Shown: piece after piece, positions 3,538 through 7,509 of the stretch
How the letters are laid out: every line of letters begins with the position of its first letter
Position numbering within the stretch: the stretch's first letter is position 1
From: Azolla caroliniana
Taxonomy: Eukaryota > Plantae > Polypodiophyta
Direction: 5' to 3'
Assembly: GCA_043228905.1 (NCBI GenBank)
Contig: JBHGNT010001486.1
Coordinates: 1 to 7,509 of the forward strand
Length of the DNA stretch: 7,509 nucleotides
The notes under the pieces: generated by a model
Seen by the model: the letters and a program-made list of their open reading frames with translations, nothing else
Databases searched by the model: none
What the model was told of the DNA's origin: nothing
Made by a program: the position numbers and the translations under genes

Positions 3538-3615
3538 GCGAGGGTTGAGAACCTCTGTTGCCGATCTTAGCTCAAAGAAGAAAACCTAACCTTCGTAAAG
3601 AACAGGAAAAACAAA

Positions 3616-4759
3616 ATGGATAGAGGCATGGCTAGCTCGTTTCCAACAGAGAAGCTCGACAGAAACAACTACGCGTCTTGCTGTTACAAGATGCACCAGT
3701 ACCTACTCGGGCATGGATATTGGAGCTATGTTGACGGAGCAAATGCCATAGCACCCAATTCGACACACAAAGACTTCCCGGCTTGGGAACAGTCAGCGAG
3801 CAGAGTTCTCTACTACTTCGTGTCTTGTGTGGGTGAACAGCTTCTGAGCTATATTCGGGATGCGAAAACGCCGAAGGATGCTTGGGGAAATCTGAAAAAG
3901 ATTTTCGCCGCAAGCAACACTACTAGGAAGCTTCAACTCCGACAAGAGCTGAGCAACTTACGACAACGCAACTTGTCGGTGGCTGATTACACCTCGAAGA
4001 TCAAAGAGATATGCGACTCCTTAGCCTCTTTCGATGTTCAACGTCGAGGAAGGCGAGATGGTGCAGATCTGTCTCGGGGGACTGGCGTTGAAGTTCGGAG
4101 CGTTCCAAACTGTTGTGTGTACACGAGAGATTACGCCGTCATTTTTCGACCTACAGTTGAGGCTCCTTACACATGCCGACAACAAGATGTTGTACACGGA
4201 GGGAGCAATTCCGGACCCTCCGGAAACAGGGGGAATCGAGCTGACGAGAACCGGCAAGGGAAACCTGTCGCTTAATGCTGGTACTGTGGCAAGAAAAGCC
4301 ACAAGGAGAGCGAGTGTTGGAAGAAGCACACCGATTCAGAGAGGAATAGATCCAGATCAGTTTCCGGATAAACCGACAAGGGTAATCGGCAACGATCGCA
4401 CTACGCCGAAGGATCCGGAAAAACCGAAAAAGGGTCAGCCTTCGTGACAAAACACGAAGCGAACTCAATGAAGAAGTCCACCTCGAAATCGGACAAGGTG
4501 TGGTACGTTGACTCCGATGCATCAAACCGCATGACGTGCCACAAGGAGTGGTTCTCATACCTTGAGAAACCGATGCAACCGGGAGTAGTCCAAACCGGAG
4601 ATGACACTCCGCATCCGATCGTGGATGTCCGTGAAGTTCCCCTGAGCCATGTCGAGCAGAAAGGGAAACTCATGAACGTGTTACACGTCTTGACAATCAC
4701 GAAGAATCTGGTGTTGGTTGGGCAGATCGTTGACCAGGGGATGAAAGTACGGTTCACGC
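3616..4759 (+). pseudogene. gag: Copia gag (with CCHC zinc knuckle) and aspartic protease of element C
   Basis: EKLDRNNYASCCYKMHQYLLGHGYWSYVDG and TPKDAWGNLKKIF...LRQELSNLRQ are copia gag-like. Frameshifts near 4037 and ~4200, TAA at 4273. CWYCGKKSHKESEC (4276-4317) fits CX2CX4HX4C. WYVDSDASNRMT (4501-4536) is a mutated DSGASxHMT protease motif. Confidence 0.93.
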
Positions 4760-4846
4760 TGTCGTAGTGTATTTCGTACACTACGTGAAAAAGTAAAAAT
4801 AATATAACCGATTTAATTACATATAAATAAATAAAATAAGAATATC

Positions 4847-4933
4847 AAAATATTTATCACGTGCATAGGGCAAGATTCAAACCTTGTACCTCCACGTAGC
4901 CAAACCTCAACTTTACCATTATGCTACCTTATC
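4847..4933 (-). promoter_or_regulatory. tRNA-like internal Pol III promoter cassette in LTR D
   Basis: Minus strand has A-box-like TAGCATAATGG (4926-4916), GAGGT, B-box-like GGTTTGAATC (4883-4874) and TTTT at 4850-4847. A-to-B start distance is 43 nt. Confidence 0.55.
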
Positions 4934-5002
4934 TTTAGTGTTCTACAAATAGATTTAATAACTATAAGTGCTTTATTTGCACCTACCTTTATTAAAAGGT
5001 AA

Positions 5003-5150
5003 ATCATGCATTTTTAGAGTGCGTGAATATTTTATAGAAAAACGCAAGCAACTAAAAAGTGACTCATGCACATCTAGTGTGCATGAGCACTATATTTAGC
5101 AAATAAAAGCAAGGATTAGAAAAGCATCACATGCACATTTAGTGTGCATG
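5003..5150. repeat. Three ~60-67-bp-spaced copies of the palindrome CATGCACA-T(C/T)TAG-TGTGCATG in U3 of LTR D
   Basis: 10-bp arms at 5063-5072/5078-5087, 8-bp arms at 5130-5137/5143-5150, and a degenerate copy at ~5003-5027. Homologous copies in LTR E at ~6341, ~6407 and ~6470. Confidence 0.8.
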
Positions 5151-5484
5151 AACATATTAGAAAAAGCATGTAGCTATGCTTAGTCTCTCCCATCACTATA
5201 TAAGGATGGGGAGCACATTGTAGTTTTTGTTGATTATTTTTCTATAATGATCAATCAATCTAAAATATTCGTGGGATTCACGAATTTGCTAAAATAATTC
5301 TCTCTTACTACCTAAATATTGACTAAATATACTAAACTCGTGGGATTCACGAGATTCTTATCTTATAACTCGTTATACCTATTCTTTACTAGCCTTATTT
5401 GTATTTTTATTCCTCCTAGTCCAAAACCTCGGCGGTTCCCACCCGACTCACGCAACGATCCGGAGCCGAAGGGCTCGACAACGC

Positions 5485-6096: not shown

Positions 6097-6822
6097 TGTC
6101 GTAGTGTGAATCACACAATATGTGAAATATGTAAAATACTATATCCGATTTAAAGTACGTATAATAAATGAAATAAGATATTAAAAAAATATATTACATG
6201 CATAGGGCAAGATTCGAACCCTATACCTCCACATAGACAAACCCTAACCTTACCATTGTACTAACTTATCCTTAGTGTTTTAAATGTAGATTTAATACCT
6301 ATAATACCTTTAATTACGCCTACCTTTATTAAAAAGGTAAGTCATGCATTTTTAGAGTGCGTGAATACTTTATTTATAAGAAAAATGTAAACCAATAAAA
6401 TATTACCCTTGCACATCTAGAGAGCATGAGCGCTATATTTAGGAAATAAAAGCATAGTGTAAAAAGAAACTCATGCACATTTAGTGTGCATGAACACTTT
6501 AGAAAAAGCATGAAGCTATGCTTAGCCTCTTCCATCCTTATATAAGGAGGAGAGAAAGATGTATGGTGGTGTTGATTATTTGACAAGGGTTGATTAATAT
6601 AATATATTGGTGGGATTCACGAATTTGCTAACTATTTTTCTCTCTTAATCTGAGTACTCACTAATACATTATACTCGTGGGATTCACGAGTTTTTCATAT
6701 CTTTCTATCTTACAATATATTTCATATTCTTAATTGCCTTAGAATTTTCTTTTCTCCTAGTCCAAAACCTTAGTGGTTCCCGCCCAACTCACGCAAACGA
6801 TCTGGAGCCGAAAGGCACGACA
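6097..6822 (+). repeat. 5' LTR of element E (726 bp), diverged relative of D
   Basis: TGTCGT...ACGACA termini, block-by-block similarity to 4760-5480, and TATATAA at 6539-6545. Confidence 0.92.
6183..6270 (-). promoter_or_regulatory. tRNA-like internal Pol III promoter cassette in LTR E
   Basis: Minus strand has TAGTACAATGG (6263-6253), GAGGT, GGTTCGAATC (6220-6211) and T7 at 6189-6183. A-to-B start distance is 43 nt. Confidence 0.6.
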
Positions 6823-6826
6823 CATT

Positions 6827-6842
6827 TGGTGAACACGACGTG
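6827..6842 (+). promoter_or_regulatory. Primer binding site complementary to the tRNA-Trp 3' end
   Basis: TGGTGAACACGACGTG starts 4 nt after the LTR. It matches 15/16 to TGGTGAACCCGACGTG, the complement of the plant cytosolic tRNA-Trp 3' end as I recall it (not verified by search). Confidence 0.75.
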
Positions 6843-6860
6843 GACACGGGTGGCAAGGAG

Positions 6861-7026: not shown

Positions 7027-7509
7027 TGTCGTGTGAATCTTCACACACTATGTAAAAAATAATGAAATAATTAATTTAGATTAGATTAGTAGCTTGTTAT
7101 AGAAATATGGATGTACTCAAGAGTTTTAAAATGTATTTTACTACATACAAAATAGACAACTACATATCAAGTTAGGTGGACATGAACCTTGAAAAGATAG
7201 GGAAAATAGAATTTTGAAGTATCCCACATAGATAGGAAACTTAAGGCCCTGGCTATATAAGCACATTGAGATCCCTCATTTTTCATTTGTGCTAAGAGCA
7301 CTTTGGCCACTTTTTCTAGATGGATGAATGTGGCCAAGTTCCCAAAAACCGACTGGCAATAAAATGGAACCGACCGGTAATGGAACTGGAATCGGCCGGT
7401 AAGCAAACCGGAACCAGCGGGAAAGCAATCCGGAACCGATTGGTAAGCAAACTGGAACCGGCCGGTACTCAAATTGGAGTCGGCGAAATCGGCAATCGAA
7501 TGGTGTCGG
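7027..7509 (+). mobile_element. LTR F (TGTCG-type, runs off the window end), inserted in the gag of E
   Basis: Starts TGTCGTGTGAATCTTCACACACTATGTAAAA, resembling the starts of D and E. Composition switches abruptly to AT-rich. TATATAA at 7254-7260. The right end is not in the window. Confidence 0.75.
7345..7488 (+). repeat. ~22-bp degenerate tandem repeat, about 6 copies (consensus AAGCAAACYGGAACCGGCCGGT)
   Basis: Units at 7358-7378, 7379-7400, 7401-7422, 7423-7444, 7445-7466 and 7467-7488, plus a partial copy from 7345. Confidence 0.85.

What the first reader, a model, noticed from the sequence alone, without database searches (positions are those of the whole stretch)
6183..6270. Antisense tRNA-like Pol III cassette built into the LTR of family D/E
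Seen: on the minus strand of LTR E, TAGTACAATGGTAA...GAGGTATAGGGTTCGAATCTTG is followed by T7. LTR D has TAGCATAATGGTAA...GAGGTACAAGGTTTGAATCTTG followed by T4 (4933-4847). Both boxes keep a 43-nt spacing (about 44 in tRNA genes) in two visibly diverged LTRs, with AT-rich TATA-like sequence ~25-35 nt upstream. I cannot fold a cloverleaf, so this is not a tRNA gene. Known: A/B boxes form type-2 Pol III promoters and TFIIIC sites, and Cassandra elements carry 5S-derived Pol III promoters in their LTRs. Inference: this family captured a tRNA/SINE head in U3. It could produce an ~80-85-nt antisense RNA or act as a TFIIIC barrier protecting the LTR promoter in heterochromatin. I do not know whether this has been described.
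Basis: partly seen in the sequence, partly recalled or inferred. Interest (0 to 1): 0.8.

Follow-up and report, generated by a model that had tools for sequence, protein, structure and literature searches.

The report
Backward tRNA-type promoter in moss LTRs
A family of protein-coding jumping genes, likely from a moss, carries in its end repeats a conserved backward-facing stretch with the two promoter boxes of a tRNA gene but no tRNA fold, likely captured from a tRNA-like sequence and likely acting as a docking site for the tRNA transcription machinery next to the element's own promoter, though no binding or transcript has been shown.

Summary
LTRs D (4760-5480) and E (6097-6822) each carry a minus-strand A box and B box 43 nt apart, followed by a T run; 0 of 1000 shuffles give this. 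The LTRs belong to a Phygy-type gypsy family (NCGN target site, tRNA-Trp primer site) with protein-coding members. In 59 aligned LTR copies the spacing is 43 in 49, and the 72-nt module changes about half as often between subfamilies as the rest of U3. The boxes are not better kept than their own spacer, and B-box C56 is T in most long-contig copies (C kept in 50-68% of whole-genome depth). There is no cloverleaf and no Rfam tRNA hit. The only RNA data are polyA libraries, which cannot show an 85-nt product. tRNA-like LTR pieces are known (Helenus TRIMs). This one differs: it is antisense, closed by a T run, and in an element with its own TATA box, so it cannot drive the element. A second LTR family in the same contigs has a similar antisense cassette. 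This scan noted comparable cassettes in fungal gypsy elements, on other DNA. Function is unproven.

The parts
6097..6822 (+). LTR E, 5' LTR of a Phygy-type gypsy element, TG...CA ends
   Evidence: followed by a primer site; NCGN target sites in the family; Phygy traits
6199..6270 (-). 72-nt tRNA-sized module in U3 of LTR E, antisense to the element
   Evidence: internal-branch changes 0.017 per row against 0.034-0.037 in other U3
6252..6263 (-). A box of LTR E
   Evidence: motif met in 39 of 59 copies
6210..6220 (-). B box of LTR E, core intact in this copy
   Evidence: full core in 6 of 59 copies, T at C56 in 26 of 59
6183..6189 (-). T7 run, predicted Pol III terminator
   Evidence: T4 or longer within 60 nt after the B box in 57 of 59 copies, in AT-rich sequence, with no chance control run
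6286..6297 (-). conserved AT-rich block 16-27 nt upstream of the module; role unknown
   Evidence: chosen after seeing the data
6539..6545 (+). TATA box, predicted Pol II promoter of LTR E, about 270 nt from the module and facing the other way
   Evidence: sequence; zone conserved in the family, p 0.03
6827..6844 (+). primer-binding site, tRNA-Trp type
   Evidence: the family site (10 of 45 3' flanks) is the complement of the 3' part of a tRNA-Trp fragment in L028
6879..7026 (+). gag-like stub of element E, cut by LTR F
   Evidence: matches the region after the primer site in other loci; no Pfam hit; the gag label is inferred from position
4760..5480 (+). LTR D, solo LTR with a 4-bp ACGC target duplication inside a copia pol gene
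4847..4933 (-). cassette of LTR D: A box from 4926, B box from 4883 with T at C56, T4

Best explanation
The cassette is a family-wide, antisense A-box/B-box module in the U3 of a Phygy-type gypsy LTR; it was likely captured from a tRNA gene or tRNA-derived SINE head, and in copies with an intact B box it likely binds TFIIIC and recruits Pol III back to back with the LTR's predicted Pol II promoter. Shown: layout, family-wide presence, lower change between subfamilies, loss of the cloverleaf, and an orientation that rules out transcription of the element from it. Inferred: tRNA origin (about 0.8); TFIIIC binding in young copies (about 0.5); the benefit, which I take to be an open-chromatin or boundary site on the flank side of the TATA box, with an unstructured RNA of about 80-90 nt as a by-product. 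Copies and subfamilies with T at C56 would be weak or dead.
For: 0 of 1000 shuffles. Spacing 43 in 49 of 59 copies; only 7% of 657 same-length LTR windows keep their length as well. The module changes on internal branches at 0.017-0.018 per row against 0.034-0.037 for other U3 columns of the same base (p<0.001) and 0.028 for the first 250 nt (p 0.003), also on a tree built without the cassette; terminal-branch change equals the U3 background. T8, A14, G18, G19, G53, T54, T55, A58 and C61 show no variant at 8% of depth in 4 of 4 contig sets. L074, a contig whose name gives coverage 34 and which has an open 214-codon frame after the LTR, has a perfect B box. A pattern of B box plus 3' arm hit 9 places in GTDB contigs, 3 of them ARAGORN tRNA genes. 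A free relic in L010 resembles the cassette outside the boxes (z 3.0; 2 of 300 shuffles). A second LTR family has an antisense cassette with 44-nt spacing.
Against: The boxes are not better kept than their own spacer on internal branches (A+B p 0.35-0.54) and the B box equals background (p 0.40-0.68). The B-box CpG is intact in 9 of 56 rows, against 55-86% at many other LTR CpGs, with a 35 to 4 skew to T56, so several active lineages seem to have fixed T56. Both boxes are intact in only 2 of 59 copies. A-box G10 is changed in 50% of depth in X11 and about 79% in X20; L074 has that change too. No Rfam tRNA hit. With the ascertained 3' part held fixed, similarity to the two tRNA-Gly genes is weak (z 2.0 and 1.2). 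Most other positions near the boxes are also invariant.
Confidence: 0.45

Rival explanations
1. The module is a tRNA-derived relic with no Pol III role today; it is kept as ordinary U3 sequence (Pol II factor sites or a sense-strand constraint on the genomic RNA), or looks conserved because it spread through the family later than its surroundings.
For: Conservation covers the whole block, spacer and 3' arm included, not just the boxes. C56 and G10 are lost in high-depth subfamilies. The 5' 250 nt of the LTR are generally less variable than the rest.
Against: A-B spacing is held; the A box is among the least changed parts; half or more of whole-genome depth keeps C56 although it is a CpG (laid on E, so biased to C); a second family has the same layout.
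Confidence: 0.35
2. The short antisense RNA is the selected product: it would pair with the U3 end of the element's genomic RNA and tune silencing, packaging or reverse transcription, like the Pol III small-RNA cassette in foamy virus U3.
For: A T run closes the unit inside the LTR. An 8-bp stem around the B box can form on the minus strand in 86% of cells. L074 and L030 fold better than shuffles (z -2.3, -3.6).
Against: No consensus structure; no covariation above shuffles for that stem (122 of 500 shuffles reach the score); D and E fold no better than shuffles (z 0.1, -0.4).
Confidence: 0.12
3. The boxes are a chance look-alike that arose once in the ancestral LTR and was inherited by all copies.
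For: All copies share one origin, so they are not independent; no donor tRNA was found; relaxed ARAGORN calls real copies less often than box-keeping shuffles (7 of 56 against 130 of 460 at ps80).
Against: 0 of 1000 shuffles; tRNA-like 3' end; similar cassette in a second LTR family and in L010.
Confidence: 0.08

Closest known systems
Helenus / TRIMp3 (Kojima 2024, PMC10886601; read parts 1-4 of 6 of the text and term passages, no supplements)
   Same: tRNA-like A and B boxes inside LTRs, no working tRNA, proposed origin from a SINE2 insertion, Pol III activity not validated.
   Different: Helenus are non-coding TRIMs of 311-1263 bp whose cassette is proposed to drive the element; the only plant case is Selaginella, with 120-bp LTRs and 5-bp TSDs. 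Here the LTR is about 725 bp, the family has RNase H-integrase members, a TATA box is present, and the cassette is antisense and closed by a T run. The paper says 'not a few' Repbase LTRs hold tRNA-like pieces but follows only TRIMs; it has no occurrence of 'antisense', 'opposite' or 'Physcomitr'.
Cassandra (as described in PMC10886601 and in passages of bioRxiv 2023.07.14.548913)
   Same: Small-RNA-gene promoter inside a plant LTR.
   Different: 5S-derived, replaces the Pol II promoter and transcribes the element; a TRIM of ferns and angiosperms.
Phygy clade (Neumann et al. 2019, PMC6317226; passages and one row of supplementary file 3)
   Same: 4-bp NCGN target duplication, tRNA-Trp primer site in 81%, non-chromovirus gypsy described from Physcomitrella.
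   Different: The passages read mention no LTR cassette; the RT tree was not tested here.
Bovine foamy virus U3 miRNA cassette (PMC7693620; abstract and passages)
   Same: A self-contained Pol III unit in U3 of an autonomous LTR element.
   Different: It yields processed dumbbell miRNAs with a shown role in replication; the cassette here has no conserved fold and no shown product.

Membership tests
Phygy gypsy clade | 4-bp NCGN target site | tested here: met
   D has ACGC on both sides; NCGN in 32 of 44 5' flanks and 22 of 35 3' flanks, background CG 0.035
Phygy gypsy clade | tRNA-Trp primer-binding site | tested here: met
   10 of 45 3' flanks and window E; complement of the tRNA-Trp fragment in L028
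Phygy gypsy clade | gypsy domain order, no chromodomain | tested here: met
   L004: RNase H, integrase, SH3, then purine tract and LTR; no chromodomain hit in the one frame scanned; L067 and L075 agree
Phygy gypsy clade | placement in the RT/RH/INT tree | not testable with these tools
   no REXdb reference set available
Helenus / TRIMp3 | tRNA-like sequence in the LTR with conserved box A and GGTTC in box B | tested here: inconclusive
   boxes present; full B core in 6 of 59 copies, C56 in 50-68% of depth; no donor tRNA identified
Helenus / TRIMp3 | short non-coding TRIM | tested here: not met
   725-bp LTRs; coding members; the one complete copy, L041, has a 1.8-kb interior
Helenus / TRIMp3 | Pol III promoter placed to transcribe the element | tested here: not met
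   cassette on the strand opposite to primer site and coding frames, T run 20-30 nt after the B box
tRNA gene | cloverleaf and covariance-model match | tested here: not met
Type 2 Pol III promoter | A and B boxes at tRNA spacing with a downstream T run | tested here: met
   E and L039 have both boxes intact; spacing 43 in 49 of 59
Type 2 Pol III promoter | TFIIIC / Pol III occupancy and transcript | not testable with these tools
   only polyA libraries were available
SINE insertion | free-standing SINE family, tail and own target duplication | tested here: inconclusive
   one similar free relic (L010) in 222 kb; no empty-site LTR seen; no search for a target duplication was made

The most novel reading that the evidence does not exclude
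Moss gypsy retrotransposons have more than once captured a tRNA-type promoter and mounted it backwards at the outer edge of U3, where TFIIIC and Pol III act as a portable insulator for the element's Pol II promoter. The second family, whose cassette reaches the LTR end with no T run, would also fire Pol III into host flanking DNA. Thousands of such LTRs would then be TFIIIC sites shaping moss chromatin.
Probability: 0.25. Interest if true: 0.75.

Novelty: new variant of a known kind. Interest (0 to 1): 0.45.

Why it matters
Known small-RNA-derived LTR promoters (Cassandra, Helenus, Ajax) serve, or are proposed to serve, to transcribe tiny non-coding elements. A backward, terminated cassette in a protein-coding family cannot do that, so its retention needs another reason. 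If it binds TFIIIC, it gives a direct test of whether plant transposons carry their own chromatin boundary, in a lineage with good transformation tools. If it does not, it is one more tRNA-like relic in a repeat and a caution for tRNA and SINE annotation.

Tried and rejected
No whole genome is held, so copy ages and the host tRNA set could not be had. Functional tRNA gene: rejected. Vestigial acceptor and T stems: no covariation above shuffles (part of that structure string was misplaced on gap columns, so only its T-stem part counts). Hairpin round the B box: pairs possible, no covariation. Donor isotype: a first test gave z 3.4-3.8 for L102, L109 and L106 but was circular, since they were found with the 3' arm; the corrected test gave z 2.0, 1.2 and -0.7, so tRNA-Gly is only a weak lead. 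No likeness to the tRNA-Trp primer beyond the T loop (by eye). Landing pad for other elements: 5 of 76 match ends fall at 6285-6316, about 3.6 expected from length, and many ends are alignment artefacts: not supported. Expression: no RNA holder listed. In 3 of 3 polyA libraries, reads over 6176-6277 all lie in one direction, the same as reads over the gag stub in X21 and X22, and share variants as if from one or a few loci; such libraries cannot show an 85-nt non-polyA RNA. Three viral-contig scans found nothing. The protein search gave 11 unnamed copia gag relatives and no host name. The lineage of the second LTR family stays open: no Pfam hit for its gag-like stub. Literature: searches listed no paper on an antisense tRNA-type cassette in a moss or Phygy LTR; the library lacks most subscription papers, and I did not read the Helenus supplements or Repbase, where such LTRs may be listed.

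Full report
Setting. The window is a nest of LTR retrotransposons. A copia element (gag at 3571-4272, protease, pre-integrase and integrase pieces) is interrupted by two related LTRs, D (4760-5480) and E (6097-6822). D is a solo LTR with a 4-bp ACGC duplication; E is followed by a primer site at 6827 and a short internal stub, cut by another LTR, F, at 7027. Neumann et al. 2019 (PMC6317226; passages and one supplementary row) define Phygy by a 4-bp NCGN duplication and a tRNA-Trp primer site. No genome is held; that the host is a moss is inferred from these traits alone.

Observation. Confirmed at the stated places: E has an A box from 6263 and a B box from 6220 on the minus strand, D from 4926 and 4883, both 43 nt apart, with T7 and T4 behind. 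Shuffles gave such a pair in 0 of 1000 (E), 0 of 1000 (D) and 0 of 100 (window). The box motifs used are recalled consensus motifs. ARAGORN and Rfam find no tRNA.

Family. To avoid choosing copies by the cassette, I scanned metagenome contigs with a U3 motif lying outside it: 102 stretches, 101 loci, 222 kb. Flanks are NCGN in 32 of 44 and 22 of 35 cases, 10 of 45 3' flanks carry the primer site, and that site is the complement of a tRNA-Trp fragment in L028. L004, L067 and L075 show RNase H, integrase or SH3 pieces before the purine tract and 3' LTR, so the family has coding members; L041 is a complete copy with a 1.8-kb interior and no Pfam hit in the four frames scanned. Primer site, coding frames and TATA box are on the plus strand; the cassette is on the minus strand and faces the LTR's outer edge.

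Conservation. Copies with one BLAST match from LTR position 60 or less to 200 or more gave 63 rows with D and E; 2 exact and 2 near duplicates were dropped, leaving 59 (62-96% identical, median 78%). This filter leaves out copies that lost the region: L008, L046, L061 and the 5' LTR of L041 have deletions there with different ends; three kept rows also have partial deletions. By plain column identity the boxes are only modestly high: A 0.92, B 0.90, spacer 0.85; 16-19% and 27% of windows are as conserved. Splitting changes into internal branches (active lineages) and terminal branches (decay after insertion), the 72-nt module shows 0.017 internal changes per row against 0.034-0.037 in other U3 (p<0.001) and 0.028 in the first 250 nt (p 0.003), also on a tree built without it. 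The A box (p 0.001-0.02), the 11 nt after the B box (p 0.001-0.004) and a block 16-27 nt upstream (chosen afterwards) are low; the B box is at background (p 0.40-0.68); the boxes do not beat their own spacer (p 0.35-0.54). These p values treat columns as independent and are not corrected for several tests. Spacing is 43 in 49 of 59.

State of the boxes. The A motif is met in 39 of 59 copies, the full B core in 6, both in 2 (E, L039); 26 have T at C56. That CpG is intact in 9 of 56 rows with a 35 to 4 skew, whereas many other LTR CpGs keep 55-86% (a few others are also low), so some active lineages seem to have fixed T56. Long contigs favour old copies. In whole-run contig sets laid on E, T56 makes 32, 32, 50 and 33% of depth and A57 18, 21, 12 and 13%; A-box G10 is changed in 50% of depth in X11 and about 79% in X20; the other invariant tRNA positions show no variant at 8% (biased towards E, and summed contig depth is no copy number). 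Variable sites there were 2 of 15 in the boxes against 14 of 31 in the spacer (p 0.03). The high-coverage contig L074 has a perfect B box and a changed G10. A yeast structure paper shows base-specific TFIIIC contacts in the B box, including template G56 (PMC11724288, passages); that T56 weakens binding strongly is my recalled knowledge.

Origin and structure. No Rfam tRNA match in 20 loci; relaxed ARAGORN calls real copies less often than box-keeping shuffles; RNAalifold gives no consensus pairs; an 8-bp stem round the B box can pair in 86% of cells without covariation; D and E fold like shuffles. A pattern of B box plus 3' arm hit 9 GTDB places, 3 of them tRNA genes (two Gly, one called His), so that end reads like a real tRNA 3' end; outside it the likeness to Gly is weak. 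A free relic in L010 resembles the cassette (z 3.0). A second LTR family (L030, L066, L021) begins with an antisense A/B cassette of 44-nt spacing that runs to the LTR end with no T run; outside the boxes and 3' end its likeness to the D/E cassette is not significant (z 1.2, 0.9), so shared or separate capture is open. The part of LTR F in the window shows no such pair.

Expression. Three polyA libraries show only reads in the element's sense direction over the cassette, likely from one or a few loci. They cannot detect a short non-polyA RNA, so this is no evidence either way.

Mechanism. The cassette cannot transcribe the element. In a 5' LTR it sits about 270 nt outside the TATA box, back to back with it; in the genomic RNA it lies in the 3' U3. 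The simplest working role is a TFIIIC/Pol III docking site on the flank side of the Pol II promoter, with a short unstructured by-product (0.45; that tRNA genes and TFIIIC sites can act as chromatin boundaries in yeast and mammals is recalled, not tested). A relic kept for other reasons is nearly as likely (0.35); a selected antisense RNA (0.12) and chance (0.08) are less so. A landing-pad role, a lead from earlier notes of this scan, was not supported.

Known systems. Kojima 2024 describes Helenus TRIMs with tRNA-like LTRs and notes that not a few Repbase LTRs hold tRNA-like pieces. This family fails two Helenus criteria (non-coding TRIM; promoter placed to drive the element). Foamy viruses show that U3 can house a self-contained Pol III unit. 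Plant tRNA genes carry upstream TATA motifs in only 22-32% of cases and T runs in 67-72% (PMC11700998, passages), so the weak upstream TATA is not decisive. Ten literature searches listed no report of this arrangement in mosses. Earlier notes of this scan describe similar cassettes in fungal elements; none matched this sequence.

Verdict. A real, family-wide, moderately conserved antisense tRNA-type cassette in a Phygy-type LTR: a new variant of a known kind, function unproven. Interest 0.45.

Noticed in passing
L030:2570-2650, L066:1-153, L021:1285-1367: A second LTR family starts with an antisense tRNA-like A/B cassette (44-nt spacing in L030 and L066) that runs to the LTR end with no T run, then a TATA-like motif and a CT microsatellite; a gag-like frame follows in L021. 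Its lineage was not settled.
   Followed up: partly
L028:6258-6312: Directly after the LTR end lies the 3' half of a tRNA-Trp sequence in direct orientation, in place of a primer site.
   Followed up: partly
L041:4795-4878, L036:3026-3098, L062:7499-7573, L028:6270-6312: Four tRNA genes or relics in 222 kb of family loci, about 470, 100, 4600 and 15 bp from an LTR; seems many, but distances vary and no genome background was available.
   Followed up: no
L010:1095-1172 (minus): Free-standing tRNA-like relic that resembles the cassette outside the boxes; may belong to the donor family.
   Followed up: partly
window 4994-5160, 5256-5373, 6332-6502, 6595-6710: The D/E LTR has three palindromic U3 sub-repeats about 65 nt apart and two palindromic repeats after the TATA box, candidate factor sites.
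   Followed up: no
L041:2096-3886 (minus): Complete short family member: primer site, gag-like start, low-complexity interior of 1.8 kb, purine tract; likely non-autonomous, or a misassembly.
   Followed up: partly
window 7027-7509; L053:281-490: LTR F has an NCGN left junction and a terminus like D/E but no cassette in the part seen; an F-like copy abuts a D/E-family LTR in L053.
   Followed up: partly
L102, L109: tRNA-Gly genes without CCA and followed by T runs inside bacterial MAG contigs; they look eukaryotic and may be contamination.
   Followed up: no
window 7366-7485: 22-nt tandem repeat, four copies, at the window's end.
   Followed up: no
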